Positions 7,002 through 63,628 of a stretch of 64,000 nucleotides of DNA are shown one piece after another. Within the stretch, counting starts at the first letter, position 1. Every line of letters begins with the position of its first letter. Where the stretch lies: positions 102,409-166,408 of IMG/VR virus record IMGVR_UViG_3300042924_004713. One strand, given 5' to 3'. Source of the DNA: a virus. A program made the position numbers and the translations under genes. Under the pieces are notes generated by a model. The model ran no database searches, was not told the origin of the DNA, and saw only the letters and a program-made list of their open reading frames with translations.

Positions 7002-8131
7002 TGATTGTTGTTTAGTAATTTGAAAAACTTATCAGGAAAGTCTTTGTTGATCTGTTCCCTAAGGTGTATCATGTGATCTTGATTATATTTACAGATGTCT
7101 CTAGCAGCTTCGAGGAATTCACGCGGTGATTTACAGATATCTATTATAACATTGATCACTCCTCGAAGTCTTGCATGATTATCTTCAATGTTGTCAAAAC
7201 TTTCATCTATAATGCCATGAAAGGTTCTAAATCCCATGTTTCGAAGATCACGATTGAATCCGGCATTGGCTACACATACCCAAGGATGCCCAATGGCTAT
7301 TGGTTTCCAGATTTTTTCTGTTCTAAAACTAAAAGGCTTGTCGTGTACTGTTTCGGTTACAATGCTAAAATAGGTATCAACATAGGTATCCAGATTTAGG
7401 TAAATGGCTCCCCATTCTTCATTGAACAGAGTAGGCATAGCATACTTTTGATCACTAAACTGCATGTCAACTCTGTTTTGATAACGTTGCACTTCATACT
7501 TACTGGGTAATAGTTTGATAGACCTTGGCCTGTTCATCAAATCTATACCATGTTGTTCTAGACACAAAGATCCATCATCAATGAAATTTGGATCCAACCA
7601 AGTCCATAGTGCTTGATCAAGCAGTCCAAGATAGTCTAACTGTTCAACCATCCACTTGCGATGTGGCCTGGCCCTGCCGTTCAAAAACAAAAATTTATAT
7701 GGCTTATTGATTTTGGTATAGATCTGATCACTGTGTTGTATTACTTCTAAGTTTTCTGGAAAATGATGAACTTTGCTAATAAAATGATCATGTCTAAGAT
7801 AATCACAATCAACACGTATGTCACCACCGCTGATCAAAAGTATCTTCTTTGAAAGCAGTAGATCTTCAAAACGCAGTTTGCGTATGATGTAATGCAGAGT
7901 TTCACTGCCTTCAAACGGATTACTGTATACCACTCGAATGTTGGAATCAACCAACTGTCTGATCAATCTATTGTACTTGGCGAATTGTTTGCGGCCAAAC
8001 ACATATACCCGGTTGGGTGTTGGTAACACTGTGGCAAAGTCGTGAAATGTTTCTGTTGCCCAAGGACGTAGTAATTCTGTGGTCTCACAGCCTTCGTCAA
8101 GTGATAGATTGAGCGTTGGCATGTGATTCAC
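6989..8131 (-). CDS. Conserved phage hypothetical protein, paralog of 5768-6925; ends in TAG
   Basis: Same motif set as 5768-6925. Confidence 0.75.
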   Translation of the reverse strand: MNHMPTLNLSLDEGCETTELLRPWATETFHDFATVLPTPNRVYVFGRKQFAKYNRLIRQLVDSNIRVVYSNPFEGSETLHYIIRKLRFEDLLLSKKILLISGGDIRVDCDYLRHDHFISKVHHFPENLEVIQHSDQIYTKINKPYKFLFLNGRARPHRKWMVEQLDYLGLLDQALWTWLDPNFIDDGSLCLEQHGIDLMNRPRSIKLLPSKYEVQRYQNRVDMQFSDQKYAMPTLFNEEWGAIYLNLDTYVDTYFSIVTETVHDKPFSFRTEKIWKPIAIGHPWVCVANAGFNRDLRNMGFRTFHGIIDESFDNIEDNHARLRGVINVIIDICKSPREFLEAARDICKYNQDHMIHLREQINKDFPDKFFKLLNNNQWMI

Positions 8132-10937: not shown

Positions 10938-11265
10938 AGTATTTTAAATTCCATTTTTGATGCGGTTCAATGTCAGTGATCACAATCACGTTGTTAGCAT
11001 GGCATGCCTGTCCAGCTTCTGCTGGCGCTAGCTTAGAACTAACTGGTGTCTTAATTGGTACCAACTCGCTATTGACCACACGCACACGAGTATTAGAACG
11101 TTCGTAGGTCTCTCTGTCAATCTCTAAATAGTTACCAGGCCGATCCTCCATGCTATAAAATAGCACCTGCCCGTGATCGTCGTAGTACACTCGATAGGAA
11201 ATCTTAGAAACAACTTCCGGTTCAAGATGTTTTTCTACTTCACGCCAAAATTCTAATAGGTCCAT
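10930..11265 (-). CDS. Hypothetical protein
   Basis: 111-aa ORF overlapping both neighbours in the operon. Confidence 0.7.
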   Translation of the reverse strand: MDLLEFWREVEKHLEPEVVSKISYRVYYDDHGQVLFYSMEDRPGNYLEIDRETYERSNTRVRVVNSELVPIKTPVSSKLAPAEAGQACHANNVIVITDIEPHQKWNLKYYD

Positions 11266-19300: not shown

Positions 19301-22300
19301 TGTTGCTGGCAGCATCACTGGGCGAATTTTCAACATCTGTAAGTATTGGACTGATGTATTCTTGCAAACTTGCATTGTAGTAAGCAGGGATATCAAAGTC
19401 GGCTATATCACCATTGAACAGATCTTGTCCAGCATACTTTAGGTTAAATTCTCTAATCTGTACATGATAAGGCTTGACCTCAGACAGGTAGTCTAGCACA
19501 AAGTCTTGGTTATCTCGTCTGTAGGTTTGATATGGCAACAGTTCACGAATGTTGTGTTGCACATCAATCAGACTGGTTTTCATCAACCAGTCCGGTGTTA
19601 ACTGCTCGGTCAAGATGTAGTTAAACATTAGAATCAGCAGATTGTTTCTTTCAATCAACAATTCATCAATGAAAAGTTCTTGATTGATACCTTGAATAAT
19701 TTTGCGTGTTTCGGCTTGAGGTGCTTGATCAAAGTATTGAGCATCAAACACTTCACCGTCAAAGCCTAATCTACCCAATTGATAATCATAGATGGCAGGT
19801 GATATTTTGATAGTACCATCCTGCAGACCCACACGATTCCATCCTGAATCCAACAGCTGATATACTTCAAACTTGCCCTGGCTATTAGCAGTGACCAATG
19901 CCACTGTGCCCACTGCTACCTGTTGTGCTATCAATGCAGCATATGATGGGACTTCAATTGCAGGAGTTGTGTCTGGATTGAACCCAGGCGCATACCAGTT
20001 GATATAATCCCAGTATTCATTGGTACGATAATTTTGTACTCTGATCAGTCGCAGACTGTAGATGTTGTTTTCAAATATGGTTTCATAGATGGTCCATCTA
20101 CCATTGTTGTTGCTGTCGCTGAGCACAAGATACCTGTAGCCCACTGGTACAATAAGAATATTTTGCCAGCTGAGTTCTTCAAGGTTAGCAACTTCTTGAT
20201 TCCAATTCGTAACTAGAATATTGCCCACTGTGGTCTGTTGCAATGGCACAGGCTCTTCGCTGTTGAGCAAGGTCAAGTTACGACTTTCTGCAATAGGATA
20301 CAGTGCCAACACACTATTGGTTCTGTCAATGTAGTTTTGCAGCGCACGGAATCTATCCACGAACATGCTTTGGCGTGGACGGAATTGAACACCATATTTC
20401 TCTGCCACGGTCAAACTAGGATCTGGCACGGAGAGACCACTTTGATCTTCACCAGCAAAGCTATCCTGTAGTTTGCGATACAGCGGTGGAGTTAAGAACG
20501 CATCTGCTTTGCCCTGGGCCAGCAGCTGGAACTCAGTGTGGATATTATCAGTATTGGGAGTTTGATCAAATTCAATATGAATGATAGTGTCAAACGCCTT
20601 GATATAACTGCTACAGTTGTACAAGGCCACAGTGCTAGAGTTCAGTGGTGCCATGAATGGAATACCACTGGCAATTGGATTGGCCAAATATTGCGCGATT
20701 GCCACTGTGCTTAGAGTTTTATTACCTGTGGTTGGTAATGTGTCTATGCCTCTGACCCAGAAATAATAATTTGACACAAACACATTGTTTTGTGTTAGTG
20801 CGGTTGTTACTGTGTAGTCAATAAAGTTCAAGGGCGTACCAGGACCAGTGTAGTTGGCTGGTGGTACTGTGCTTTCTACCCACTGATAGATATCAACACG
20901 ACTGCCAGGAAATATCTGTCCCCACTTACGACTTGCATACGCAAGCTCATCTTGAGTGACGTCAAGATATCTGACACTGCTGGTATCCCACCAGATTTGC
21001 CCCACATGATTTTTGCCCCAACTATTGCCCTGCACACTGGTAAGTCCAGTGTTGTAGAAAGCCGGATCGTTTGTTGAAACATAATCAATATTTTGTCTTG
21101 CGGCGCCTAGGACTTTGCCCTGTTGCGGATTGAAGAAGTCAAGAAACTGTGTTCTAGGACTTTGTAATCTATCATACAGCAGTGCATTGTTGATACTATA
21201 GATATCAACAGCAGGCACTTGTTCACGTTTGGCTACCCAGCTAGGAGTTCGATCAGCATTGATAAATGCTGACATCGCACCATTGTTTGTAGTGGTACTT
21301 ACTGTGGCGTTTGGTGATCCTACTAGAGTATATGCCCAGGCCTGACTCACGCTTTCTCCAAATCGTTCAGCTGTGGTACTTTCAGGCGAATACAGTTGTT
21401 GGCCAAAGTTAAACAGTCCTGGATTCAACGAAGAAGGATTTACTGATGGCAAGTAGTCAAATTCATACACCACACCAGATTGATGTAGATCAGTATAAAA
21501 AGTGGTGCTTCCCGAATCAAAGAAAGTGGTGCCATTGTCAAAAGTAACGTTCAAATGCGCTGTACCACCAGGAGCACCTATTATCACGTCTTCTTGTGCT
21601 GATGTTAGTGACCATCCAAAGTTAGCACCATCGGTGGGATAAGGACTGCTTAAAGTTTGACTAAACTCAAAGCTGTTGAATCCTAGGTCACCATATGCTG
21701 TGCCAATGGCACCTGGTAACACAGACAATCTGTTGTAAGGTGTTGTAGCAGCCTCGTTAATTACGTCAATCACCAACAGACCACTAGATGTTACTGCCGC
21801 AGTTACATTGGGTATACCACTGTTGACAATAGCATTGGCTAGTCCTGCAACTGTGTTGTTTGGTGCCGCAGGTACAGCGATTTCTTGATAGTTTATCTGT
21901 AGAGTATGGCCAGCAGTCAACACAGGGTTTGCCACGGTGCTGGTTATTGTGCCATAGGTTAAAGGTTGATTCACAAACATCTTTACCGAACCAGCCTGTG
22001 GTACTTGGCTTGCTTGGCTATCATAAGGACTGCCAACTGCTAGTTGACTATCACTCAACACAAACTGCACACTATGACCAAATTCTGCACGTTCTTGTGG
22101 AATGTCGCTTTCAAGTTTGTGTACAGGTCTAAAGAAGTTTGCTTCAATTTCAACAACATCACCAATATTCAACGGTTGATTAACGGTCACACTAATTGGA
22201 GCTTCAGGACTCACTGAATAGTTCACGGTATAGGTATTGTTTCTTAGTGTGCCATACTGTGCAGTGTTATTAAGGAATTCACCGTTGACCTTAACCGACA

Positions 22301-25300
22301 CCGGCAGAGTCAATGGAGCTGCTGTGGTAAAGGTTGTAGGTGCTGTGGTAGCTGTGGTAATAATACGACTTTCTACATCTCGGTTAAAGTAATATACAGA
22401 ACCAGCTCTAAACGTCCCGTTGATATTTTCGTTAGGACATCCAATGGCCAGTTGTCTGCCATCATGACTTGTCGCAACTGAAGCACCAAATTTAGCGTCT
22501 GATGCCAGCCCTGGTCTAGTTAGAACTTGGCATAGTTGATAGTATGTTGGAGCATACGCCATTATGGTAGCACCAATAGCAGGTGAGTTTACAAATACCA
22601 AATCATAATCATTTAGTGTGCTGTCAGGCAATGAGCTATCGCTCTTAAGCCATTCGTAATCAATCTTAGGACGTTGAACAGTGCCATTGACTTCTACTCG
22701 TACTGAATTGATATTTGTGGCAGTAAACAATGATTCTCTAACTGCAAATCGATCAGTGACTGACAGGCGTCCTCCTGACACTGTGTAGTCTAAAATAGCA
22801 CCAGCAAAGCTAACATCAGTTACAGTGATAACACAGTCTTCAGCAGGACTTGAGCCACCAATTTGAGTGCCTTTAATGGTCAACACTTCACCAATACTGT
22901 AGTTTGTGCCAGCGTTTAATAGATCAACAGAATAAAGACCACGCACAACTTCAACGTCCCACAAAGCACTAGTGCCAAGACCAGTTGTGGTGCTGGCAGT
23001 GATATTATAATATTCCTGGAAATCCAACTGCACTGACTGACGTCTTGATATTACCACAGTTTGATTTTTACTTGGTGCTGTAAAGAACTCAATAAAACTA
23101 CCAGTAGCAGAATAATCAATATTCAGTCTTTGAGGTAATCCAGATACCACCACTTCAAGTTGTTGTACATTATCATACTGTATGGTAACAGTAGAGAATC
23201 TACGTGTGGTACCAGTGGTAGGATATGATATAGACTGCGTGGGCACTGGCACTTGACCATATGCATACACTCGGTTCAACTCAGGTGCGCCAACATACAA
23301 CCAACGTTCATCGCCACTCATGGCCAGACTGCTACCAAATTTTGCAGGACCAGGCTGATCTAGTCCCAATAACAATTGGCTTACAGTGAAAGCCTCAAAG
23401 TCGCCGTTGTAATTAATGATTGCGGTATAACCAACGTCTGACAGACTATTAGGAGCACCCACTGCACCCCAAAGATTGTTGCCCACAGTCATTGTTGCAC
23501 CAAAATTACTGACTTGGGCTGCATTCAGGCTGATTGAACCACCATCTTGTAATGTGCCGGCAGGATTTACTCCATATTGGAACACAATGCCAGTGCTGGC
23601 TCCGGGAGCTGATGCCAACATCAGTGTGTTGTTTTCGGTCTGTGCCACAGCACTAGCCCAATAACTGTTCACTGACCGCAAAGGCTCAAGACGTTGATTG
23701 TAAACAAACGGTTCAGTTCTTTCTAATACTTGCCATCTATCAAAACCATTGTTGTCAACCCAAACTAGGCTCTTAGCTGTGACATTGTTGATATATGGTA
23801 AATTGGCAATATCGCTGGGCTGGTCTACTCTAATAGTTTCTAAAACTAGACATACACCTTGTCCTAATAATTCAATCTGATCGTTTGGAATCGCGAACTC
23901 AATCACAATTGATGTCAATGAAGGTACTTCAAGCACACGATAAGCACCGTTGACGTCGGTTGAGAAAGATTTAATTACTATAATGTCATTTACAGACAAG
24001 TTGTGTTGCTGACTGAATCCGGCTAAAGATGTGCCATTGAAATTGTCTGTGATACTTTGAATGTTACCTGGAACTGCTGAACATCTGTAAACATTCCAAT
24101 CATGACTGTTGACCTTGGCAATCCACACTGTGGTACCTACTCCAACACTGTCTATGTTAGCATTGATATTTGTAGGATCAATGATTTCAAATTCTGTGAT
24201 ATCAACATCATCAAGATTTACATAACCAGCAGTAGGTAGATCCAAATCTCGCCTTGGTGTCACTGCCACAGGCAATATTTCTGGGGAAGTAACGTTCCAA
24301 CTGCTGCGCCATAGATCACCAATCTGCACAGTTTGATCTGCAAAAGACTGTTCAAAAGGCACTATCACCTGTACCGTGCTTGGATTTGAAGTTAGCAGTG
24401 CTTGATTTATTCTTATGTCAAAGAATCTACGATTAGCCTGCGCTCCATAGATTCCTTTGAGAACTGCCCAGTTTTCAAATATACTGTAGTCAGCAACTTC
24501 TTTGTCAAAACTTGCAGTGCCAAACAAGTCCACACTGAACTTTGTACCTTTGGTACTCAAGAACTGTTTGTACACGTTCACTTGACTTACATCATCAAGA
24601 TTTAGATTGGCCATGTACTCTCTGGGTCTAAAACCAATCAGACCGTAGGCCAATAGATCCTGATCACGTTCAAGGTTGGCTCCCACCGTGTTATAGGTCT
24701 GCTGAATCAAATCTGCTTTGTTGGCAAGATTAGGCAATAGACCTTTTTTGATTTGATTATAATCGCTTAGGGTCCAGTCAACATAGTCAAATTCTTGTTT
24801 GGGCTGTACAATAGTCAGCGCACTGTAGTACTGATTCTTAAACTTTACAATTTGACCCTTGGTATAGGTTACGTTTGGTTGCCAATCAACAATGTTGTCT
24901 TGATTTAGAATGAAACCACGTGCATCCAACTGACCATTCCAGTCAGTGCTGGTGCCTGCTATTAGTTGCATGCGTCCCTGACGTGCAGCAGTGATTGGGT
25001 CATATATCAAGTCACCAAACACGCTGGCATTTTTAAACACCATGATATGTTCATATGCAGTGAATCTTAGATCAGCATAGTTGATGGTTTGCTCTGTTAA
25101 TGATGTGATCTTGAAATCGTTATCAATACGTTCAACAATTAGATCGTTGATAAGAATCTTGCGTTTGTTTTGATCTTGTATGCTGGTTGTAGTATCTCGT
25201 TCTATGATACTGTCAACAATTGCCCCGGGCCTACTGACCATGAGCGAAGTGCTAGCAGGATTTAAGTTGATAACACTACCTGGTCCCCAGCCTTGTCCAC

Positions 25301-28300
25301 TCCAATACAGAAATTCCTGCGCCATCTGACGCCAGTTCAAGGTCAAACCATTTTCCACACTGTCAAAGATCATGCCTTGAGATTCTAACAGTGCACCGTA
25401 GCTGAACAAGAAGTCACATACAGCATTGTCATTGCTAAAGGTATAGCCATAAGGAATCTGTGTTACGATGTCACTGTAGGTAGTGGGTACTGCAACGGTT
25501 TTTCCGCCTGCTGACAGAGTAATTTTTGGTCCAGCTACCTTGCTTACTAGAATCTCAAAGTAGGGATTCACAACATCGTAACCAAAAACTTGATATCCAT
25601 CCTCAACTCTTTGAATCATTACACTGCTGTAATTCACAGCGGCAAATGGTACATTTTTGTACAAGAACAGTTCGTAACTTTCATCAGGCAGTAGCAAACT
25701 GGTGTTTAGACTGTTAGGACTGGGCTTTTCAAGAAACACCTTGATGTAGGCTTTGTCACTGAATGATGCCATGCGATATGCTAATTGTACATCAATGTTG
25801 TCAAGGTTAGCTGCCAAGGCAGTGGCTGTGTTGCTGTTACCTAGATGTGTGTTGTAATCCACAATCCAGTTGATGTAACTGGCCTTGCTGATGCCATCGC
25901 CATATATTTCAAGATTGCTAGGACTTAATCTGCTACGGTCTTGATATAGGTATTGTCCAAGATCAAGATTGAACTTGTATAGATCTCTATCAACAAACAA
26001 AGAGAAAAATTCAGCAGGACGAGTTAGCGCCAGCAAACGCATGATAGCAAAAGGATAGCTGCTGCTGGTACGCCATACGTATTCAACTGGTCCAACGTCG
26101 CCCATGCGCCAACTGCGTTGGAAAGTCTGTTTATCATACAAGCCAACCACAGAATCTAGTGGTGGTAACAGATTACCCTGTGCATCAACTGGAAGAACAT
26201 CTAACAGTCCTGGGCGCACATATTTGGGTATCACATAGAAACCATTTGGATCAGCAACCAGACCCTGCGACAGATCTTCCCATAACACCAAGTTTTCACT
26301 GGTGTAAGGAGCTGCACCATATCTGCTTTCCCACCAACTAGGTTGTTCGCTGAATCCCAACATCTCCCATGGGGCTTGATGTGGCCTGATTGTATCATAA
26401 AAATATAGGTACAATCCGCGCCATGCACCAACAGGTAGGGCTTGATTGTTTAATCTGTTTTGGCTGCGACTGTAGTTGTAACTAAAATCGTTGTTGACAT
26501 CATAGGCCTGAATAGTATAATCAATCTTGTTGGTGCCTACCCATGTCAAAAAGTCTACACTAAGGATGTCATTTACTTCGGTTAATGACCAATCTGTGGT
26601 TCTAAATTGACCTGGTACTATGTCATTTTCACGAATAGGAATCGCCGAGCGAATTTTTAAATTGTTGTAGATTCGTGTTTCAAAATCCAATAAAACTTGG
26701 TCGCGAATGTCGTCAAAGGCCACAGTGATACTGCCATCATGCCCAACAATCACAGGTGTAGGTTGTGAATAGGTTGTATCAACAAAGATTCTAGGTTGGT
26801 ATGCAGGATACAGTCCCATTTTAGTTGGGGTGTTGGGCACAAAGTTACCTACTGTGCTAGCATATTCTTGAATTTCAATGGTATCGCCTACCTGTAGAGG
26901 GTAGGTAATTGTGACCTGAGGTGTGTCCGCGCTAACTGTGTAATCTTTGTTAATGGTCAATAGATGTCCATTAACGTATACTAACAGAGCCAGATAGTTG
27001 CTCTGCGTGAAGTCATACACTCTCAAGGTGTTAAAAGTGGTTTGACTGATTGGTGTAAAGGTATAGGTGTTAGAGTCATATACCGAACGCGATGGCAGCA
27101 TATCGCTCCAGTAAAACGGATTTTGCTGTGTGCGTCCAAGATTGATATCGTTAACTGCGGCCACCAAGATTTCTGGAGCAGTGGCGTCGCCCCAATCTCG
27201 TGATGCAACTATGTCTAATAGTTGAGTTTTAAACTTGATGTATTCTGCGCTGTTCCATTGTAGTGCTCTAAAGAAATCATAGTTTGGATCTCGCATGAAG
27301 TAACCAGCCATGGTCAATGGCGCACTTTGCTGCAAGATATTCAAACCATAACGAGCAATGTAACCAAGATCGCGACTGTTGTTTGAGCCGTTGATACTGC
27401 CCTGTAGGTCAATTAGATTTTCGCAGATACTTTCATAGTGACTGCGCATGGTACCAAGAGTTACTTGGCTGACTTCTGCATTGTTAGCGTTGTTCTGTAA
27501 ATTGATTGGTACTTGGAAAAACGCATTGTTACTGATCTGATCACTCAATACCAACACAATGATTTTTTCACCCACAGGGATGTTGTCATTAAGATTGATT
27601 GTGGTTGTGTTGCTGGTAGTGGTGTACGAATAAGTTCCTGGATCCTGGAACTGTGAACCAATATAGATCTTGATCACAGGATAAGGATTAGGCAATGCAG
27701 AATTAAGTACTACCTCATTGACTTTGACATCAAGTAATAATGGTTGTGACTGATATGTGAATTCAAACTGTTGATATGTTTCACTTGGATAAGGTGCAGT
27801 GGCCCAACCAATTTGATCAGTAAAATCGGTGCGAGAGGTGTAACGACGTGCAAAACCAATGCCCACAGACTCGGTGATACTTTGACGGTCTCTTACATAA
27901 GAAAATGTATCAGTGTAATAGTTATTGATGAAAACAATATCACCAACGTTGTTAATGGTCACATACTGCACAGGAAAGCCCAGCACTGAATCATTAGCAC
28001 CGCTGCCAATTCCATAGGAGAAAAGCTTGGTTCCGTTAAACGTGCTACTTCCATAACGTTCTAGATTGCCAATACTTACATCGTCAACAAAAATATCAAA
28101 CTGTGGTGGATTGTTTACGCTGACTTTTTGTTGGCTTAGAATCCATTGTGCACCATCAAAGGTAAAACTTTGGCCTTTTCTTCCAACCCCGTTTAAACAT
28201 ACCACAACATCGTTGGGTAAAATAGCGCCATCTGAATCAGGAACCAGATTAATAATAGGCTGCTTGATCACAGGTGCCACTGTGTCTGGCGTAATTAATT

Positions 28301-30593
28301 CAACCTTGTAAATTTTATTTCTTACGTTTAGATCAGTATCAGCAGCAAAGATAATTCTACTGCCGTTGACCAAATTATATCCATCAACAATAAAGCCCAC
28401 AGGCGTGCCATTTACATCACTGAATGCGTCGCGAGTGGTAAAGTCAATTACGTCAATGGCTTTTTTGCCAAACGTACCAAAGTTGTACAACTTGAGTCCG
28501 GACTTGAACTCAATGATGGGTCTACGAGCTCTGGTCTGCAGATCTAGCAAAGCCGAGTTGTTGTTGAATTCAGCAGAAGTTTCTAACACCTGTCTATGGA
28601 ACCAACGATTACTTCTACTCCATGCATTTCTGTCTGGACTTGCACGATTGATAGTGATGTAGTCCGGAGTCAACGGCTGATTATTACTAACGTCATAGTT
28701 GCCAATATCATATGGTGTGCTGTCAAACGACACACTCACACTTTCTGTGTAAGGTTCAGGCGTGACCATGTCTACCACTGGAACCAATACAATGCTTTCT
28801 CCAACACCTTCTACATAATAAGTGTTATCGCGATACTCAACAGGAGTTACATCTCCTCGGAAAGTCACAGCAAGTCCGTTGCTAAAAGTCACGCCATTGG
28901 GACTGGTATACTGTTTTGCACCAATGATATTGTTGACATTCAATACACTGGCATCTTCAACATCAATCAAACGTATTTCGCCAACCAATTGTGGATCCAC
29001 ACTGTCTTGATAGTAAAGAGTATCCAGCACTGCTGTGAGCAAAGGAATCTGTTCAAAATAGCCATCGTCGCTGCGATACCATTGAGTGCTGCTGTATTGA
29101 CTGCCTTCAAGAATTCTAAATTTCTGTAATTCAGCCACGGCTCGAGCCGACGTCACATTAAGATATTGACGTCCAGTTTGATCAGTTATGTATTGAATCT
29201 GCCAAATACTGTAGCGTTCATCAAAGTCAATGATTTCTTCAACTTCGCTGAAAGGACGTTCATTGTAACCTGGCTGCTCGTCATCCTCAGGTGTGGGACT
29301 ATAAAAACTAGCTCTTAGCCAGCCGCCGGCGATAGAATCATTGATAAAAGGAAACTGCTCTTGAATACTAGGAATGTTGAATATGATAAATTTGCCATCA
29401 AGATCAGTGATGCCATCAATACCATCAGGATATCTTGCAAAGAAATCATCAACATAAGCGTGATTGATATCACGATAAGGAATATCACTGACCAAGTTGA
29501 CTGGATCAAGTTCGGTCAACGTATAATAAAAATTCTGTGCGCTCTTAAGTGGCACATTGAAAGTCACTGTGCCTAGGTCTTCACCATTGTTGATTACGCC
29601 CAAAACATCACGGCTACTGATGTTGGGTGTGGTAGGCATTTTGCCGTCAATACCAGGTTGTGCTTGAATATAAAACTGAGGACCAGTGCCAGGCACACCA
29701 TCAATGATTTTGAATTTGCCAGCCATCTGAGAGCTGTTTTCAGCATTGTAGTATAGTGTGTCAGGCGCACTTTGAGGCACTGTGAACACAATAGTACCTT
29801 CACTGGCGCCGTTGTTGGTAATACCTTGACTATAGATATTCACCAAGCCTGTGCTAGGCAAGGTTTTAATCCAAAATGGAAAACTGCCTTCAATACTCAA
29901 TGTGAAGATGTAGGTGTTGCCTCTGATCAAGGTCAGCTCAGGATTGATAACATAGTCAATCACATAGGCTCGGTTACCTTGATTGGTCACACGTAGATTT
30001 ACAGTGCTGGTTTGATTCTGCGCAACTTGAAACTGATAGCTACCGCCTCTGATCAAAGTTAGAGTTGGGTTTTGTCCTAGCTGTCCGCTGAAACTATAGA
30101 AATTATTGTTACGAGAAACTTCAACTGTGTTTGTGATAGCTGCGTTACCACCGGTGACATCTACCTCTAGTGGACCAGTTGGTAACCAGTAATATTCACT
30201 GTAGTTGACCAGCTTGTCATAGTCAACCAGGGGATCAAATGCATAGTACTGACTTTTGTACAGTCGGTCACTGCGATCAGTACTAGCACCTGCAAGGTCC
30301 AGCGCATCTTGAATACCTGGGTAGGTAATTGCGTCTATAACTGTGTCAGTGTCGGGAACCTTGATAGTGATAGCTGGTTCAAGTTGATAGTTAACACGGT
30401 CCTTGGTAGGTTCAACCACATACCTAGCAGCAGTTGGATTGATGCCTGGTCCAATTTTTCTACCAATAAAACCCTGTGTTTTTTTCAGTGCAGGTTCCTG
30501 AATCAGCTGATCCAGTGTTGCTCCAAGAAACTGTCTATTGGTCTTGGTCTGAAAAATTTCCGGTAAAAAGTCAACCGAACGAACTTGAGCCAT
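16344..30593 (-). CDS. Giant (4749-aa) baseplate wedge/tail-associated structural protein
   Basis: Uninterrupted 14.25-kb ORF after the gp6-like gene; FG-GAP-like repeats (FGSSLAMSGDERWLYVGAP) and two WQPNxT(Y/F)..GQ.V modules. Confidence 0.8.
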   Translation of the reverse strand: MAQVRSVDFLPEIFQTKTNRQFLGATLDQLIQEPALKKTQGFIGRKIGPGINPTAARYVVEPTKDRVNYQLEPAITIKVPDTDTVIDAITYPGIQDALDLAGASTDRSDRLYKSQYYAFDPLVDYDKLVNYSEYYWLPTGPLEVDVTGGNAAITNTVEVSRNNNFYSFSGQLGQNPTLTLIRGGSYQFQVAQNQTSTVNLRVTNQGNRAYVIDYVINPELTLIRGNTYIFTLSIEGSFPFWIKTLPSTGLVNIYSQGITNNGASEGTIVFTVPQSAPDTLYYNAENSSQMAGKFKIIDGVPGTGPQFYIQAQPGIDGKMPTTPNISSRDVLGVINNGEDLGTVTFNVPLKSAQNFYYTLTELDPVNLVSDIPYRDINHAYVDDFFARYPDGIDGITDLDGKFIIFNIPSIQEQFPFINDSIAGGWLRASFYSPTPEDDEQPGYNERPFSEVEEIIDFDERYSIWQIQYITDQTGRQYLNVTSARAVAELQKFRILEGSQYSSTQWYRSDDGYFEQIPLLTAVLDTLYYQDSVDPQLVGEIRLIDVEDASVLNVNNIIGAKQYTSPNGVTFSNGLAVTFRGDVTPVEYRDNTYYVEGVGESIVLVPVVDMVTPEPYTESVSVSFDSTPYDIGNYDVSNNQPLTPDYITINRASPDRNAWSRSNRWFHRQVLETSAEFNNNSALLDLQTRARRPIIEFKSGLKLYNFGTFGKKAIDVIDFTTRDAFSDVNGTPVGFIVDGYNLVNGSRIIFAADTDLNVRNKIYKVELITPDTVAPVIKQPIINLVPDSDGAILPNDVVVCLNGVGRKGQSFTFDGAQWILSQQKVSVNNPPQFDIFVDDVSIGNLERYGSSTFNGTKLFSYGIGSGANDSVLGFPVQYVTINNVGDIVFINNYYTDTFSYVRDRQSITESVGIGFARRYTSRTDFTDQIGWATAPYPSETYQQFEFTYQSQPLLLDVKVNEVVLNSALPNPYPVIKIYIGSQFQDPGTYSYTTTSNTTTINLNDNIPVGEKIIVLVLSDQISNNAFFQVPINLQNNANNAEVSQVTLGTMRSHYESICENLIDLQGSINGSNNSRDLGYIARYGLNILQQSAPLTMAGYFMRDPNYDFFRALQWNSAEYIKFKTQLLDIVASRDWGDATAPEILVAAVNDINLGRTQQNPFYWSDMLPSRSVYDSNTYTFTPISQTTFNTLRVYDFTQSNYLALLVYVNGHLLTINKDYTVSADTPQVTITYPLQVGDTIEIQEYASTVGNFVPNTPTKMGLYPAYQPRIFVDTTYSQPTPVIVGHDGSITVAFDDIRDQVLLDFETRIYNNLKIRSAIPIRENDIVPGQFRTTDWSLTEVNDILSVDFLTWVGTNKIDYTIQAYDVNNDFSYNYSRSQNRLNNQALPVGAWRGLYLYFYDTIRPHQAPWEMLGFSEQPSWWESRYGAAPYTSENLVLWEDLSQGLVADPNGFYVIPKYVRPGLLDVLPVDAQGNLLPPLDSVVGLYDKQTFQRSWRMGDVGPVEYVWRTSSSYPFAIMRLLALTRPAEFFSLFVDRDLYKFNLDLGQYLYQDRSRLSPSNLEIYGDGISKASYINWIVDYNTHLGNSNTATALAANLDNIDVQLAYRMASFSDKAYIKVFLEKPSPNSLNTSLLLPDESYELFLYKNVPFAAVNYSSVMIQRVEDGYQVFGYDVVNPYFEILVSKVAGPKITLSAGGKTVAVPTTYSDIVTQIPYGYTFSNDNAVCDFLFSYGALLESQGMIFDSVENGLTLNWRQMAQEFLYWSGQGWGPGSVINLNPASTSLMVSRPGAIVDSIIERDTTTSIQDQNKRKILINDLIVERIDNDFKITSLTEQTINYADLRFTAYEHIMVFKNASVFGDLIYDPITAARQGRMQLIAGTSTDWNGQLDARGFILNQDNIVDWQPNVTYTKGQIVKFKNQYYSALTIVQPKQEFDYVDWTLSDYNQIKKGLLPNLANKADLIQQTYNTVGANLERDQDLLAYGLIGFRPREYMANLNLDDVSQVNVYKQFLSTKGTKFSVDLFGTASFDKEVADYSIFENWAVLKGIYGAQANRRFFDIRINQALLTSNPSTVQVIVPFEQSFADQTVQIGDLWRSSWNVTSPEILPVAVTPRRDLDLPTAGYVNLDDVDITEFEIIDPTNINANIDSVGVGTTVWIAKVNSHDWNVYRCSAVPGNIQSITDNFNGTSLAGFSQQHNLSVNDIIVIKSFSTDVNGAYRVLEVPSLTSIVIEFAIPNDQIELLGQGVCLVLETIRVDQPSDIANLPYINNVTAKSLVWVDNNGFDRWQVLERTEPFVYNQRLEPLRSVNSYWASAVAQTENNTLMLASAPGASTGIVFQYGVNPAGTLQDGGSISLNAAQVSNFGATMTVGNNLWGAVGAPNSLSDVGYTAIINYNGDFEAFTVSQLLLGLDQPGPAKFGSSLAMSGDERWLYVGAPELNRVYAYGQVPVPTQSISYPTTGTTRRFSTVTIQYDNVQQLEVVVSGLPQRLNIDYSATGSFIEFFTAPSKNQTVVISRRQSVQLDFQEYYNITASTTTGLGTSALWDVEVVRGLYSVDLLNAGTNYSIGEVLTIKGTQIGGSSPAEDCVITVTDVSFAGAILDYTVSGGRLSVTDRFAVRESLFTATNINSVRVEVNGTVQRPKIDYEWLKSDSSLPDSTLNDYDLVFVNSPAIGATIMAYAPTYYQLCQVLTRPGLASDAKFGASVATSHDGRQLAIGCPNENINGTFRAGSVYYFNRDVESRIITTATTAPTTFTTAAPLTLPVSVKVNGEFLNNTAQYGTLRNNTYTVNYSVSPEAPISVTVNQPLNIGDVVEIEANFFRPVHKLESDIPQERAEFGHSVQFVLSDSQLAVGSPYDSQASQVPQAGSVKMFVNQPLTYGTITSTVANPVLTAGHTLQINYQEIAVPAAPNNTVAGLANAIVNSGIPNVTAAVTSSGLLVIDVINEAATTPYNRLSVLPGAIGTAYGDLGFNSFEFSQTLSSPYPTDGANFGWSLTSAQEDVIIGAPGGTAHLNVTFDNGTTFFDSGSTTFYTDLHQSGVVYEFDYLPSVNPSSLNPGLFNFGQQLYSPESTTAERFGESVSQAWAYTLVGSPNATVSTTTNNGAMSAFINADRTPSWVAKREQVPAVDIYSINNALLYDRLQSPRTQFLDFFNPQQGKVLGAARQNIDYVSTNDPAFYNTGLTSVQGNSWGKNHVGQIWWDTSSVRYLDVTQDELAYASRKWGQIFPGSRVDIYQWVESTVPPANYTGPGTPLNFIDYTVTTALTQNNVFVSNYYFWVRGIDTLPTTGNKTLSTVAIAQYLANPIASGIPFMAPLNSSTVALYNCSSYIKAFDTIIHIEFDQTPNTDNIHTEFQLLAQGKADAFLTPPLYRKLQDSFAGEDQSGLSVPDPSLTVAEKYGVQFRPRQSMFVDRFRALQNYIDRTNSVLALYPIAESRNLTLLNSEEPVPLQQTTVGNILVTNWNQEVANLEELSWQNILIVPVGYRYLVLSDSNNNGRWTIYETIFENNIYSLRLIRVQNYRTNEYWDYINWYAPGFNPDTTPAIEVPSYAALIAQQVAVGTVALVTANSQGKFEVYQLLDSGWNRVGLQDGTIKISPAIYDYQLGRLGFDGEVFDAQYFDQAPQAETRKIIQGINQELFIDELLIERNNLLILMFNYILTEQLTPDWLMKTSLIDVQHNIRELLPYQTYRRDNQDFVLDYLSEVKPYHVQIREFNLKYAGQDLFNGDIADFDIPAYYNASLQEYISPILTDVENSPSDAASNNIIWQTQPYDQWFDNYKLELQELILVTGGTGYTTAPTVTISGVAVRNATAIAVINSAGQVNSLVVTDPGEGYLTTPSVTITGGNGTGAKAIAILNNGLVRSIKTTLKYDRYQYESNIEEWQPNITFDNGQLVRFGGRIWEADSPDSTGVNTAEFIPEDWILVPVGELSGVDRTMGYYVALADQPGRELPLLITGTDYPGVQVKGLNFNQDTGFDRGPFDMTPWDNLDFDASGLPTYSETLIDSVYESEFIDQYLGTGVNDVVVDGGAFVDTYSSHAPEELVPGSEFDTMDFRVYVRPGSDWNGLGHGFDILSLRATYNSADSTISWAQIAQYQTHEIYPAAIRVSNAGPNGSSLLSSDLAPSQYTVDWVNQTITVLSGVNDDDLLVINIYEVGGGNQLLRANYNGADIGTQLEIPVKFSDIYELVIFVNGTRLLPTTDYTFESIAPTITRINFSVILTSLDAVNLTVMGFQTPQYSWSLPTVQTFTIAELSPSSTAQLTYTLTNSLQGSNPNNAYVTVNGFRARPSQGIEWYGDGSSAEFLFPERGGYSQGLVADNEVNVYVNDVPQVLGSDFTVVPWDGFSRRSIILSYVPNIGDRVLICVNTRADYIISGNQITFRPSGSFGVFPGDVVSVTTYNDTSQQNIVQIVWVGPITKGAIASEGFDFLPFDSGSVNNEPGSFDFSEGITVQENDFDLRRPVQESERMIVSLNGRLLFPGLDYTVVSDVESGDPTTYLELLSGPIAVTDVVVATLYTNQIVPNAMAFRIFQDMRGVQLTYRITDNTTTRLLSDLSVDDDIIYVENVLACGEPNIPANYLGVVTINGERIAFRYRDLENNTLSGLLRGTAGTAIANHFAGDLVYNIGRENLLSGGGYQDYVVQTSVKANGSQVQFTAPNINLTGIDSTEWLEALIVSVGGIIQPPTAYQFLNANPATVRFYDAPAAGRLVTLAVKRAQSWYQPGAFEPSDGVPLQLQNTSAAKFLRNDE

Positions 30594-61759: not shown

Positions 61760-61785
61760 AACCCCGCTTCGGCGGGGTTTTTCTT
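61760..61785 (+). terminator. Intrinsic terminator after the capsid gene
   Basis: aaccccgc-ttcg-gcggggtt followed by a T run. Confidence 0.9.
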
Positions 61786-61792
61786 GGACAGA

Positions 61793-62359
61793 TTATTCTT
61801 CGTCATCGTCTTGATAATCGTCTTCGTCTATCCATTTTTGACTTGGATCATCGTAGGCCTGATAGTAACGTTCATTGGCCTGCATGATTCTAAATCCATC
61901 TTTATATTTCAGCGCAGCAAAGGTTGCTTCTTCCTTTTTTAACAAATCGCAAACCACAAAGCTAGTGCCACAACCACCGCTGATGTTTTTGAATGGCGAG
62001 TGTTTGTATTCATTATGCTGTAATGCTTTGTGAAATGCTCCACCGTATGTAAAAATTATTCTTGTGATACCAAGCTTTTGATTTCGCAATCTAATTTTGT
62101 CAATCAAGGTCAAGACTGAGATTTCAGCTTCGTTGGCATCGTTGATGGCCAACAAACACTCTTTGAATTTGATACTGCCCTTGGTATGGTAATTGTCCGG
62201 AGTCTCTTTGGTACTCCATGGGATGGAAGCAGTGACGTGGTCTACGTAAAAAGTTTCACCGTGTGTTTTTACGACCCACATGGGGATGGTACTATCTTCT
62301 AGATGTTTCTTGTTGAAGTGAAACACTAGATCCTTGCATGCGTATTCAATCTATGACAT
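61793..62359 (-). CDS. Hypothetical protein; probable true start ATG 62359, with an in-frame TAG at codon 3 (ORF track start is GTG 62326)
   Basis: AAAGGAAAATAAA-ATG TCA TAG ATT GAA TAC GCA TGC AAG GAT CTA GTG TTT CAC, continuous with the 177-aa ORF. Confidence 0.65.
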
Positions 62360-62360
62360 T

Positions 62361-62546
62361 TTATTTTCCTTTTGTTTTAAATTTACTGCACATTAGTTCA
62401 AAATCATGTTGCCTGCTTTGAACTTGTCCGTAACTTGCTTTAGGATTACGTTCTCTATACTCTGCTTTTTGTTGTTCTATGCACTCATCGTACTTGTTAG
62501 AACAACCTGCTGCTATCAAAGCAAAAACCATTAAAATGTAGCGCAT
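62361..62546 (-). CDS. Small lipoprotein
   Basis: MRY plus hydrophobic stretch plus lipobox-like AAG-C; RBS AGGA. Confidence 0.7.
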   Translation of the reverse strand: MRYILMVFALIAAGCSNKYDECIEQQKAEYRERNPKASYGQVQSRQHDFELMCSKFKTKGK

Positions 62547-62561
62547 AACAGTTTCCTAATG

Positions 62562-62665
62562 GGTAGTTATTTTTGTGTCAGGAAACTACCAAACCCCGTG
62601 AGCGCAGCCCATCCCGTTTTCGCGTCAGCGGAGGCGGAATATGGTTACGGGTCCGCCGATGATTC
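62562..62665 (-). ncRNA. Candidate structured RNA immediately 3' of the tRNA
   Basis: GC-rich non-coding segment with GGCGGA/TCCGCC, CCCGT/ACGGG and GGTAGTT/AACTACC pairings. Confidence 0.45.
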
Positions 62666-62739
62666 TGGTGCGCCGTATGGGAATCGAACCCATTCATTGG
62701 AGGTTTAGAATCTCCTTGCCGTCCACCGGCTCACAGCGC
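62666..62739 (-). tRNA. tRNA with CUA anticodon (amber suppressor-type), CCA encoded
   Basis: GCGCTGT GA GCCG GTGGA CGGC AA GGAGA TT-CTA-AA CCTCC AATGA ATGGG TTCGATT CCCAT ACGGCGC A CCA; full cloverleaf. Confidence 0.8.
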
Positions 62740-62747
62740 ATAACGTA

Positions 62748-62776
62748 ATTATGCCAAAATTAAACTAGTAGGTCAA
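62748..62776 (-). promoter_or_regulatory. Sigma70 promoter of the tRNA cassette
   Basis: TTGACC-17 nt-CATAAT with an extended TG; predicted +1 within a couple of nucleotides of the tRNA 5' end. Confidence 0.7.
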
Positions 62777-62793: not shown

Positions 62794-62881
62794 TAAATAC
62801 TATTAACGCACTCTGCGTTTTATGCGGCAACCACCGCGTAGTGGCTAGAACCCACATCGGACTTCTTTAAGGAGAAAACAA
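62794..62881 (+). promoter_or_regulatory. Late promoter (TAAATA) followed by a three-hairpin 5' leader and a strong RBS
   Basis: Hairpins at 62805-19, 62821-40 and 62841-55; AAGGAG before ATG 62882. Confidence 0.55.
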
Positions 62882-63628
62882 ATGGGGCGTCCTCTCAAAA
62901 TACAAAAATATTCTACTAATTCTGGTATTGGTGCACCTGGTGCAGCAGTAGGCATTGATGTTGGTTTTCCAAACTTTGGCTCACTGACAGATCCAGAGTA
63001 TAATGTCAACCCAACAACTCTAAGTGCAAACGATTATCTTGGCGTGGTTGGCGGACTTCGTACCACTGCCACATCAGCTACTAATCCTGTGGTCAAGTGT
63101 ATTGTAAACATCGCCAACAGCTACACAGGTGTAGATGATGGTGTTATCCTGCGTCAAAAAGGTGCTCACAAATTTCTAGTGGCCACGAACACAGCTATTG
63201 ACCCTGCCAACGCAGTGGTGGGTGTCAGTGTGCGCATTGCTAGCCTTGGGGACACCAATTGGGTAGCTATGGGTGCACCAGTGGGTGCCGCAGTAGGCAC
63301 TATTTTCTTAGTTACAGCAGCCGCAGGCGCTGGTACCACAGGCACCTGTCAAGAAGTCGGTGTGTGCGTTTTAGACAATGATGCAACTCCTCCTGGCGGC
63401 AGCATGGCCATTGGCTTCTCAGTAGGAGATTCAACAATTACCTACATCAGCAAGCTAACCAACAAGTGGCTGTTGGATTGGACTGGAGGTAACGACTACG
63501 GTTACTCCAGCGTGGTAAATGATGTGCGTTATGTATCAAACTTCTTCACTGACGAAGGCACTGTGATCAAGAGTGGTACTGCAAATACCACAGTGATACC
63601 AGGGCAAGTTGAGAAGTGGACTAGCTAA
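62882..63628 (+). CDS. Probable virion structural protein
   Basis: Late promoter motif, strong RBS, Gly/Ala/Thr/Val-rich composition. Confidence 0.6.
   Translation: MGRPLKIQKYSTNSGIGAPGAAVGIDVGFPNFGSLTDPEYNVNPTTLSANDYLGVVGGLRTTATSATNPVVKCIVNIANSYTGVDDGVILRQKGAHKFLVATNTAIDPANAVVGVSVRIASLGDTNWVAMGAPVGAAVGTIFLVTAAAGAGTTGTCQEVGVCVLDNDATPPGGSMAIGFSVGDSTITYISKLTNKWLLDWTGGNDYGYSSVVNDVRYVSNFFTDEGTVIKSGTANTTVIPGQVEKWTS

What the first reader, a model, noticed from the sequence alone, without database searches (positions are those of the whole stretch)
61793..62776. Amber-gated gene co-transcribed with its own CUA suppressor tRNA in a non-recoded phage
Seen in sequence: a self-contained minus-strand cassette between late structural genes. 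Order: sigma70 promoter (TTGACC-17-CATAAT), tRNA with CUA anticodon (62739-62666), structured RNA, lipoprotein gene, then a gene whose natural start context (RBS AAAGGA, ATG 62359, 1 nt after the upstream TAA) reads ATG TCA TAG ATT GAA TAC GCA TGC AAG GAT CTA GTG, in frame with the 177-aa ORF. I saw no other gene in the window needing an internal TAG; the 14-kb ORF is open in code 11, and TAG ends only five accessory genes. Established: phage suppressor tRNAs are best known from genome-wide TAG-recoded phages. Inference: here the tRNA acts as a gene-specific translational switch, so the 188-aa protein is made only when the tRNA is intact and charged. That could be a sensor of host tRNA attack, charging or RF1 level, or an early stage of recoding.
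Basis: partly seen in the sequence, partly recalled or inferred. Interest (0 to 1): 0.9.

Follow-up and report, generated by a model that had tools for sequence, protein, structure and literature searches.

The report
Phage gene gated by own amber-suppressor tRNA
A large freshwater phage that otherwise uses the normal genetic code keeps a UAG stop as the third codon of one conserved gene, downstream of its own UAG-reading tRNA; over 100 diverged relatives and one cultured Rhizobium phage keep the same pairing, so the protein is very probably made only when that tRNA overrides the stop.

Summary
Only the "structured RNA" is not supported (fold z = -0.71, no Rfam family).

Across 117 distinct homologous loci:
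- 110 have ATG, then 0-13 further codons (mostly 1-3), then TAG directly before the conserved domain. TAA or TGA never takes that place.
- The nine codons after TAG keep their amino acids while varying synonymously.
- 40 of the 110 have no ATG/GTG/TTG between TAG and the conserved FHFNK motif.
- 103 of 110 have A after TAG.
- 90 of 110 have a covarying CUA tRNA on the same strand within about 3 kb, often 17-30 nt upstream.

The window's genome fragment (166 kb), a complete 364-kb relative and cultured Rhizobium phage RHph_I1_18 all use TAG as an ordinary terminator. Each has only this one convincing amber-led gene. In three TAG-less homologs (L110, L201, L221) the start ATG sits at or within two codons of the TAG position.

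Best reading: a gene-specific amber gate read by a dedicated phage tRNA. Protein function and the purpose of the gate remain unknown, and nothing here is experimental. I found no published description. This scan had already noted the same family on other genomes.

The parts
62748..62776 (-). sigma70-type promoter-like site, TTGACC-17-CATAAT with TG extension. Its -10 box ends 8 nt before the tRNA 5' end.
   Evidence: Consensus scan, 10 of 12 matches. In most related loci a promoter scoring 9-12 of 12 has its -10 box ending about 7-11 nt before the tRNA.
62666..62739 (-). tRNA with anticodon CUA (amber suppressor). G1-C72, C2-G71, A73, encoded CCA, 5-nt D-loop, A31-C39 mismatch.
   Evidence: ARAGORN. 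Rfam RF00005 35.2 bits. In a 50-sequence family alignment 15 of 18 stem pairs show compensatory changes and TCTAA is invariant.
62547..62665 (-). Untranslated spacer between the tRNA and the lipoprotein ORF. Not a demonstrable RNA element.
   Evidence: Fold z = -0.71 against shuffles. No Rfam match. No terminator-like site on this strand between the tRNA and the gene.
62361..62546 (-). 61-aa ORF with signal peptide and lipobox-like LIAAGC (probable small lipoprotein). Present only in the closest relatives.
   Evidence: ORF list. No Pfam or PHROG match. The closest relatives have a tRNA-to-gene spacing of about 294-307 nt, as expected if this ORF is present, and the 3' end of the same ORF is visible in their upstream sequences.
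62367..62372 (-). Ribosome-binding site AAAGGA, 7 nt before the leader ATG
   Evidence: Read from the sequence. An equivalent AAAGGA/AAGGAG precedes the leader ATG in relatives.
62351..62359 (-). Leader ATG-TCA-TAG. The amber codon is at 62351-62353.
   Evidence: TAG is present in 110 of 117 unique homologous loci, always TAG, while the leader codons vary.
61793..62350 (-). Body of the gated gene: 185 codons plus TAA. All-beta N-domain (residues 1-80, with a WW-like motif), ferredoxin/ACT-like C-domain (about 90-170), acidic tail.
   Evidence: Alignment A3. AlphaFold2 models, pLDDT 84.8 for the whole protein and 93.2 for the N-domain. Fold searches. hhalign against WW repeats.
61760..61779 (.). 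GC-rich hairpin between the convergent capsid gene (+) and the gated gene (-). Likely a bidirectional terminator.
   Evidence: Terminator-like site called on the + strand. Read on the minus strand.

Best explanation
This is a two-part translational lock. One part is a dedicated phage tRNA with anticodon CUA, driven by its own sigma70-type promoter. The other is a downstream gene whose reading frame opens with RBS, ATG, one codon, then UAG. Ribosomes start at the ATG. Without the tRNA, RF1 ends translation after a dipeptide. When the tRNA is made, processed and charged by a host synthetase, UAG is read as an amino acid and the 188-aa protein is made. The amber codon sits at what is effectively the N-terminus, so the identity of the inserted residue probably does not matter and the codon acts as a gate, not as part of the protein's code.

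My preferred logic is inferred, not shown. It is a coherent feed-forward AND gate: one promoter supplies both the key and the locked message. This would give tight off-state control and a delayed, steeper onset. It would also make output depend on tRNA integrity, charging and competition with RF1.

Shown here by comparative evidence: the TAG lies inside translated, selected sequence; it is always TAG; and it is physically linked to a selected CUA tRNA. Inferred: read-through actually occurs, its efficiency, the residue inserted, and the purpose. The protein's function is unknown.
For: 1. TAG conservation. TAG is present in 110 of 117 unique homologous loci, and TAA or TGA never takes that place, while the leader codons before it vary freely.
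2. Selection on the extension. The nine codons after TAG keep I-E-Y-A-C-K-D-V/L-V while their third positions vary (TAT/TAC, GCT/GCA/GCG, TGT/TGC, AAG/AAA, GAT/GAC).
3. No alternative start. 40 of 110 loci have no ATG/GTG/TTG between TAG and FHFNK. Their next canonical start lies inside the invariant PMW motif.
4. tRNA linkage. A CUA tRNA lies on the same strand in 90 of 110 loci and on the opposite strand in one. It is often 17-30 nt upstream of the ATG or about 45 nt after the stop. In two loci that seemed to lack it, it lies 4.7-5 kb upstream.
5. The tRNA is under selection. 15 of 18 stem pairs show compensatory changes. TCTAA, G1-C72 and C2-G71 are invariant. A73 is present in 49 of 50 sequences, and CCA is encoded.
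6. Distant confirmation. In the distant cultured phage RHph_I1_18 an unannotated homolog reads M-S-E-F-M-TAG-N-E-S-C-R-E-V-I-F-H-F-N-K, with tRNA(CUA) starting 12 nt after its stop.
7. Gene-specific. Code 11 covers 94% of the 166-kb fragment and TAG ends 29 of 196 ORFs. In a complete 364-kb relative the figures are 95.6% and 38 of 450. In RHph_I1_18 TAG ends 27 of 249. In each genome this is the only convincing RBS-ATG-x-TAG-long-ORF case. TAG-joined same-frame ORF pairs are not enriched in the two freshwater genomes, where this was checked.
8. Placement. The CUA tRNA lies far from the main tRNA array and next to its target gene.
9. Context. The base after TAG is A in 103 of 110 loci. From memory, Bossi (1983) reported this context as favouring amber suppression.
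10. TAG marks the start. In three TAG-less homologs the start ATG sits at or within two codons of the TAG position (L110; L201 and L221).
11. Synthetic parallel. A co-expressed suppressor tRNA with an amber-bearing gene gives a low-leak feed-forward loop (PMC7969014, abstract seen).
Against: - Nothing is experimental. Expression, processing and charging of the tRNA, and read-through itself, are all unproven.
- The window's tRNA is atypical (35 bits, small D-loop, A31-C39 mismatch). ARAGORN missed three relatives' tRNAs.
- TAG still ends 8-15% of the phages' own ORFs, so an efficient suppressor should extend those proteins.
- G002, a 93%-complete relative, keeps the TAG but none of its 33 tRNA matches that ARAGORN could read has anticodon CUA.
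- L196 and L221 have normal starts yet still have a CUA tRNA nearby, so the tRNA may also serve another purpose.
- L109 and L182 have an ATG right after the TAG, which would bypass the gate.
- No known function or fold explains why this protein would need such a gate.
Confidence: 0.75

Rival explanations
1. Read-through occurs as above, but the gene exists for the tRNA and not the reverse. The early UAG would then be a sensor, and the protein would feed back on suppressor activity (transcription, charging or availability of the tRNA, or RF1 competition). This would keep read-through in a tolerable range, as the in-frame UGA in prfB does for RF2.
For: The phages still end 8-15% of their ORFs in TAG, so suppression needs limiting. 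Two TAG-less homologs keep a nearby CUA tRNA, so the tRNA may have a role beyond this gene. The sensor codon lies at the very start, where it reports decoding without wasting synthesis. The N-domain has many invariant His, Lys, Thr and Asn residues, as expected of a ligand- or nucleic-acid-binding surface. In Phosso the homolog sits in a block with two tRNA-synthetase-like genes and a PTH2 peptidyl-tRNA hydrolase.
Against: There is no evidence that the protein binds tRNA, RF1 or DNA. No other selected target of the tRNA was found in 166-kb, 364-kb and 171-kb genomes. Fold matches are generic: Z 5.3 to ACT domains for the C-domain and Z 3.7 or lower for the N-domain.
Confidence: 0.25
2. The ATG-x-TAG is a minimal upstream ORF. 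Ribosomes terminate at UAG and restart at the adjacent AUU/AUC or a nearby GTG (termination-reinitiation coupling), and the neighbouring tRNA is unrelated.
For: The codon after TAG is ATT or ATC in most loci, and these are weak start codons. 70 of 110 loci do have a GTG/TTG/ATG before FHFNK. L109 has ATG directly after TAG. TAG-less L110 uses ATGA overlap coupling to an upstream ORF.
Against: This does not explain why the stop is always TAG (110 to 0), nor the same-strand CUA tRNA in 90 of 110 loci. In RHph_I1_18 and other loci the next codon is AAC, AAA, ACT, AAT, GTT or CAA, none of which is a start, and there is no canonical start before the conserved core. Residues encoded before the GTG are conserved as protein.
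Confidence: 0.07
3. This is a transitional state of genome-wide TAG reassignment, either its first step or its last remnant, and not a dedicated switch.
For: Phage CUA tRNAs are best known from TAG-recoded phages (10.1101/2021.08.26.457843). Phosso carries two other CUA tRNAs.
Against: The one-gene state is stable across relatives down to about 50-60% protein identity, and across both short and long gene forms. The TAG is always at the same N-terminal position. TAG is not depleted as a terminator. GC content is 41-47%, not low. Described recoded clades have 26-71% of genes recoded.
Confidence: 0.05
4. The gene simply starts at GTG 62326, the upstream TAG is incidental or the gene is decaying, and the tRNA has another use.
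For: AAGGA lies 4 nt before the GTG in the window. Automatic callers annotate it that way (the Atlas record starts there).
Against: That codon is GTG in only 33 of 55 distinct sequences. The upstream nine codons are under protein-level selection. TAG is invariant. The protein is under strong purifying selection, with 26 invariant columns across 60 sequences.
Confidence: 0.02

Closest known systems
Stop-codon-recoded phages with phage-encoded suppressor tRNAs (TAG read as Gln, 'code 15': crAss-like, Lak and others; 10.1101/2021.08.26.457843, PMC9523058)
   Same: A phage-encoded tRNA(CUA) lets in-frame UAG be translated in a standard-code host, so expression of the UAG-bearing genes depends on that tRNA.
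   Different: In those phages 26-71% of genes carry scattered in-frame stops, and in their close standard-code relatives TAG is depleted as a terminator. Here exactly one gene carries one UAG, always at its N-terminus and physically linked to the tRNA, and TAG remains a normal terminator for 8-15% of ORFs.
prfB (RF2) autoregulation through an early in-frame UGA
   Same: An early in-frame stop codon makes synthesis of one protein depend on how that stop is decoded.
   Different: prfB is passed by a +1 frameshift, not by a suppressor tRNA, and its product is the factor that reads the stop. Here no link between the protein and UAG decoding is shown.
Synthetic suppressor-tRNA feed-forward 'leak dampener' (PMC7969014) and sup-tRNA genetic circuits (PMC13276491)
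   Same: A co-expressed amber suppressor tRNA plus an amber codon in the target gene forms an AND gate with low leak. I take this to be how the natural cassette works.
   Different: Those are engineered in E. coli. This one is natural, conserved in over 100 phage lineages, and its output protein has no known function.
Programmed stop-codon read-through in viruses (Q-beta A1, retroviral gag-pol)
   Same: A fraction of ribosomes read a stop codon as sense to make a longer protein.
   Different: Those cases use host near-cognate tRNAs, and both the short and long products are functional. Here the virus brings a cognate tRNA and the unsuppressed product is only a 2-4-residue peptide.
Amber-gated PTH2-like genes beside CUA tRNAs noted earlier in this scan (e1-933198, e1-5351193, e1-5618230)
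   Same: The design is the same: tRNA(CUA) plus an ATG-NNN-TAG gene start. The Phosso and Atu_ph07 homologs of the present domain lie one gene away from a PTH2 gene in Phosso, and from its syntenic counterpart (annotated only as hypothetical) in Atu_ph07.
   Different: The gated protein is a different family. No PTH2 match was found in the window's fragment or in complete G001, and the matches in RHph_I1_18 and G002 lie far from the cassette.

Membership tests
tRNA (Rfam RF00005) acting as an amber suppressor | Cloverleaf that scores above the family threshold | tested here: met
   35.2 bits against a gathering score of 29. ARAGORN also calls it.
tRNA (Rfam RF00005) acting as an amber suppressor | Anticodon CUA in a 7-nt loop with U33 and a purine at position 37 | tested here: met
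   The loop is TTCTAAA. TCTAA is invariant in 50 family members.
tRNA (Rfam RF00005) acting as an amber suppressor | Stems maintained by selection (covariation) | tested here: met
   15 of 18 pairs show double compensatory changes.
tRNA (Rfam RF00005) acting as an amber suppressor | Transcribed, processed, aminoacylated and active at UAG | not testable with these tools
Amino-acid identity is unresolved, and no close sense-tRNA relative was found among the phage's 28 tRNAs.
Genome-wide TAG-recoded ('code 15') phage | A large share of genes carry in-frame TAG, so code 11 fragments the genes | tested here: not met
   Code 11 ORFs cover 94% and 95.6% of the two freshwater genomes. There is one amber-led gene per genome.
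Genome-wide TAG-recoded ('code 15') phage | TAG avoided as a terminator | tested here: not met
   TAG ends 29 of 196, 38 of 450 and 27 of 249 ORFs.
Genome-wide TAG-recoded ('code 15') phage | Phage-encoded codon-specific release factor (RF2) to back up the code change | tested here: not met
   The PF00472 search finds only a small GGQ-only protein: a 136-aa open frame (about 125 aa from its ATG) in G000, and a 189-aa open frame in G001 (sequence not read). It finds none in G002 or RHph_I1_18.
WW domain (PF00397) | Pfam model match above threshold | tested here: not met
   No Pfam family at E up to 1.
WW domain (PF00397) | WW core motif: G-x-x-Y-Y-x-N-H, then about six residues, then W | tested here: inconclusive
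   hhalign of A5 against WW repeats gives probability 90% and E 1.5e-6, but over only 17 columns. The profile search hits WW-repeat proteins at E 8e-8 to 9e-6, summed over 6-7 repeats.
ACT / ferredoxin-like regulatory domain (C-terminal half) | beta-alpha-beta-beta-alpha-beta fold match standing clearly above background | tested here: inconclusive
   Best hit Z 5.3, rmsd 3.2 A, 75 residues aligned (AHAS small subunit), tied with RRM and other ferredoxin-like folds. Foldseek finds nothing at E below 0.04.
Autoregulatory recoding sensor (prfB type) | The product controls decoding of its own in-frame stop | not testable with these tools
   Protein function is unknown.

The most novel reading that the evidence does not exclude
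The cassette is a self-contained natural circuit that measures UAG read-through, that is, suppressor tRNA against RF1. Its WW-like/ACT-like protein then acts back on translation or on the tRNA. This would be a phage-borne counterpart of prfB autoregulation, using a private tRNA, that lets a standard-code phage run a controlled low level of stop-codon suppression during infection.
Probability: 0.2. Interest if true: 0.9.

Novelty: new variant of a known kind. Interest (0 to 1): 0.78.

Why it matters
- **A different use of a suppressor tRNA.** Phage suppressor tRNAs have been explained as tools for whole-genome code switching. Here a dedicated tRNA is kept for a single codon in a single gene. 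The pairing holds across hundreds of large phages that use the standard code (396 IMG/VR contigs encode a relative), which points to a natural one-codon translational lock.
- **Annotation errors.** Gene callers mis-annotate the gene everywhere. They truncate it, read it in code 15, or miss it altogether, as in GenBank MN988519.
- **A testable system.** RHph_I1_18 and its host Rhizobium phaseoli are a cultured pair carrying the same device, so the idea can be tested directly.
- **Wider interest.** The cassette is also a ready-made natural counterpart of the suppressor-tRNA gates built in synthetic biology.

Tried and rejected
- **Protein function.**
  - Pfam and PHROGs give no hit.
  - A PDB sequence-profile search gives nothing below E 0.35.
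  - Foldseek against the PDB gives no match for the whole protein or the N-domain.
  - The wide structural search gives only generic ACT/RRM-like matches for the C-domain (Z 5.3 or lower) and Z 3.7 or lower for the N-domain. The N-domain list includes OB-like folds and fragments of ADP-ribosyltransferases, all too weak to use.
  - The ESM Atlas gives nothing usable by shape or by features.
  - Pfam scans of unusual architectures from the profile search look like gene-calling artefacts.
- **tRNA identity.** Comparison with the phage's 28 other tRNAs shows no close relative. The inserted amino acid is left open.
- **'Structured RNA' after the tRNA.** Not more stable than shuffles and no Rfam family, including HDV-like ribozymes.
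- **Other amber-gated genes.** Scans of G000, complete G001 and RHph_I1_18 found none. The few extra pattern hits resemble the TAA/TGA control hits and read like off-frame sequence. One TAG-joined same-frame pair in the window (5768-6925 and 6989-8131, minus strand) has its own RBS and ATG and fits chance, given 10 TAA-joined pairs.
- **Co-variation of stop codon and anticodon.** No family member with TGA or TAA in the leader and a matching tRNA was seen in 117 loci.
- **PTH2 linkage.** No match in the window's fragment or in G001. The matches in RHph_I1_18 and G002 lie far from the cassette.
- **Helical partner module of Phosso and L110.** No homolog in G000 or G001. RHph_I1_18 gives only a weak hit, E 0.06.
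- **Literature.** Four searches and two papers read found no description of a single-gene amber gate in a standard-code phage.
Full report
**What is there**

The minus strand between the capsid gene and the next late gene carries these features in order:
- A sigma70-type site, TTGACC-17-CATAAT with a TG extension, at 62776-62748.
- A tRNA with anticodon CUA at 62739-62666. It is ARAGORN's only call in the window, scores 35.2 bits in Rfam, has an A discriminator and encodes its CCA.
- A 119-nt spacer.
- A 61-aa lipoprotein-like ORF at 62546-62361.
- One base after that ORF's TAA: ATG (62359) TCA TAG (62353-62351) ATT GAA TAC GCA TGC AAG GAT CTA GTG. This runs in frame with the ORF that ends at 61793.
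- An AAAGGA box 7 nt before the ATG.
- A GC-rich hairpin at 61760-61779.

No terminator-like site separates the tRNA from the gene. The one part of the description that does not hold is the 'structured RNA'. The spacer folds no better than shuffled sequence (z = -0.71) and matches no Rfam family.

**The TAG is a selected feature, not an accident**

A tblastn search of cultured phages found the N-terminal domain in only three phages (four records). One is Rhizobium phage RHph_I1_18. Its homolog is unannotated and reads M-S-E-F-M-TAG-N-E-S-C-R-E-V-I-F-H-F-N-K. There is no ATG, GTG or TTG before the conserved core, and an annotated tRNA(CUA) starts 12 nt after the gene's stop.

Scans of IMG/VR and of genome contigs then gave hundreds of relatives: 373 and 396 confirmed stretches, of which 80 were kept each time, plus 6 MAG contigs. 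After removing duplicates there are 117 distinct loci:
- 110 have ATG, then 0-13 further codons (mostly 1-3), then TAG directly before the conserved domain. TAA or TGA never occupies that place.
- The base after TAG is A in 103 of 110.
- 40 of 110 have no canonical start codon between TAG and FHFNK. Their next one is the ATG inside the invariant PMW motif.

In the 55 distinct segments from the first set of loci that have TAG exactly nine codons before FHFNK, TAG is invariant and the leader codons vary. Codons +1 to +9 keep I-E-Y-A-C-K-D-V/L-V while their third positions change synonymously. The 'GTG start' is GTG in only 33 of these; in the rest it is GTC, GTT, GTA or TTA. So the stretch after the TAG is translated, and translation must come through the TAG.

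In three TAG-less homologs (L110, L201, L221) the initiator ATG sits at or within two codons of the TAG position. The amber codon therefore marks the functional N-terminus, and the identity of the inserted residue is unlikely to matter.

**The tRNA travels with the gene**

A CUA tRNA lies on the same strand within the fetched locus in 90 of 110 TAG loci, and on the opposite strand in one. Distances run from 17-30 nt upstream of the ATG to about 3 kb. In a few loci, as in RHph_I1_18, it lies just after the stop.
- Five loci are truncated upstream.
- Fourteen show no tRNA within 3 kb. For two of these it lies 4.7-5 kb upstream.
- ARAGORN missed three such tRNAs that Rfam and a pattern search recovered.

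Fifty distinct tRNAs align as a cloverleaf in which 15 of 18 pairs have compensatory double changes. TCTAA, G1-C72 and C2-G71 are invariant. A73 is present in 49 of 50, and CCA is always encoded. Most have a promoter scoring 9-12 of 12 whose -10 box ends about 7-11 nt before the tRNA 5' end.

The amino acid it carries cannot be told from sequence. None of the phage's 28 other tRNAs is close to it.

**The genome is not recoded**

| Genome | Size and status | Code-11 ORF coverage | ORFs ending in TAG |
|---|---|---|---|
| G000 (holds the window) | 166,408 bp, about 48% complete | 94% | 29 of 196 |
| G001 (relative) | 363,943 bp, complete | 95.6% | 38 of 450 |
| RHph_I1_18 (cultured) | 170,978 bp, complete | 91.7% | 27 of 249 |

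In G000, same-frame ORF pairs joined by TAG number 1, against 10 joined by TAA. The only RBS-ATG-(1-4 codons)-TAG-long-ORF case is this gene. G001 and RHph_I1_18 likewise each have one convincing amber-led gene.

In G000 and G001 the CUA tRNA sits tens of kilobases away from a 28-tRNA array and next to its target gene instead. No codon-specific release factor is encoded, only a small GGQ-only RF-1-domain protein.

**What the protein is**

No Pfam or PHROG family matches. AlphaFold2 models are confident: pLDDT 84.8 for the whole protein and 93.2 for the N-domain. They show an all-beta N-domain of about 80 residues, a beta-alpha-beta-beta-alpha-beta C-domain and an acidic tail.
- The C-domain matches ACT/RRM-type folds only generically (best Z 5.3, rmsd 3.2 A, 75 residues).
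- The N-domain has no match above Z 3.7.
- A profile search over 1.8 billion representatives finds a compact family of 148 clusters, with three architectures: a long form, a short form with the N-domain only, and a form with a helical extension of about 100 aa in front.
- The family profile also touches WW-repeat proteins. hhalign gives 90% probability over 17 columns (G-E-T-F-Y-V-D-H-V...W against the WW core G-x-x-Y-Y-x-N-H...W). This is a lead, not a classification.
- In Phosso and Atu_ph07 the domain is fused behind the helical module and has no TAG. In L110 the helical module is a separate ORF coupled by an ATGA overlap.
- In Phosso the gene lies in a block with two tRNA-synthetase-like genes, a CUA tRNA of another type and a PTH2 peptidyl-tRNA hydrolase.

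**How it most likely works**

Ribosomes load at the strong RBS and ATG and meet UAG at codon 3. RF1 releases a dipeptide unless the phage tRNA, charged by a host enzyme, inserts a residue. Only then is the 188-aa protein made.

The tRNA is promoter-proximal on the same strand, so both parts probably come from one promoter. That would make a coherent feed-forward AND gate like the synthetic 'leak dampener' (PMC7969014, seen). The expected behaviour is a tight off state, a delay, a steeper response, and dependence on tRNA integrity, charging and RF1. The comparative facts are shown here. Read-through itself, its level, the residue inserted and the purpose are inferred.

The main rival on purpose is a feedback sensor of suppressor activity, as in prfB. 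I give it about 0.25. It is favoured by the phages' continued use of TAG as a terminator and by two TAG-less homologs that keep a nearby CUA tRNA. Termination-reinitiation, a recoding relic, and an incidental TAG are each contradicted by the exclusive use of TAG, the tRNA linkage and the codon data.

**Caveats**

- There is no experimental evidence of any kind.
- G002 (93% complete) keeps the TAG, but none of its 33 tRNA matches that ARAGORN could read has anticodon CUA.
- L109 and L182 have an ATG right after the TAG.
- The window's tRNA is atypical and scores low.
- An efficient suppressor would extend the phage's own TAG-terminated proteins.

**Novelty**

Published recoded phages have 26-71% of genes with in-frame stops, and suppressor tRNAs in them are read as tools of code switching. 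Four literature searches found no description of a one-gene, tRNA-linked amber gate in standard-code phages.

Earlier notes of this scan describe the same family on other genomes, and a parallel design with PTH2-like genes. A later check of one of those PTH2-cassette notes priced what was seen at 85/100 and its bold reading at 20/100.

New in this report:
- The cultured RHph_I1_18 case.
- Whole-genome checks in two complete genomes.
- The finding that TAG-less homologs start at or next to the TAG position.
- The helical partner module.
- The WW-like motif.

Noticed in passing
window 62804-62884 (+): A freshwater-2 RNA motif (Rfam RF02980, 77.8 bits, E 1.6e-11) forms the 5' leader of the + strand gene 62882-63628, back to back with the tRNA promoter. 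The same motif sits beside the cassette in L022 and L114.
   Followed up: partly
L001 1462-1710 (GenBank MN988519, record 11001-11249, minus strand): Cultured Rhizobium phage RHph_I1_18 has an unannotated amber-led short-form homolog directly upstream of its annotated tRNA-Pyl(cta). The record shows no CDS there.
   Followed up: yes
G000 C1 70009-70383 (outside the window) and G001 231273-231590: A small GGQ-only RF-1-domain protein (ArfB/YaeJ-like; about 125 aa in G000, a 189-aa open frame in G001) is encoded inside or beside the 28-tRNA array. Each phage also carries a tmRNA gene elsewhere (G000 76184-76612; G001 298488-298862). Together these look like a ribosome-rescue toolkit.
   Followed up: partly
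window 5768-6925 and 6989-8131 (-): Two ORFs of about 380 aa lie in the same frame, separated by TAG plus 21 sense codons. The second has its own AAAGG RBS and ATG, and neither has a Pfam hit. With a suppressor tRNA present, a read-through fusion is possible but consistent with chance.
   Followed up: partly
window 16344-30593 (-): A single 4,750-aa ORF, open in code 11 and ending in TAA.
   Followed up: no
L107 1484-1559 and L108 1232-1307 (Sinorhizobium phage Phosso): Phosso has two CUA tRNAs of a different type (G73, GCGGTTT acceptor stem). One lies among cysteinyl- and seryl-tRNA-synthetase-like genes, 5 kb upstream of the TAG-less homolog. The other is followed by a 1.3-kb unannotated gap with no clear ORF even when TAG is read as sense.
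   Followed up: partly
L053, L056, L058, L096, L113: about 20-50 nt upstream of their CUA tRNAs: The -35 box of the tRNA promoter is embedded in a perfect hairpin (AAAGGGCC-TTGACG-GGCCCTTT), so one element could serve as both terminator and promoter.
   Followed up: no
L120 629-702 (G002) and MN988519 15286-15359: ARAGORN reports tRNAs with an 8-nt anticodon loop ('tatg') in two unrelated phages that carry the cassette. Their meaning is unknown.
   Followed up: no
L041, L032, L092, L094: 0.5-1.5 kb downstream of the gated gene: In several relatives a betaproteobacterial-type (permuted) tmRNA gene lies just downstream of the amber-gated gene.
   Followed up: no
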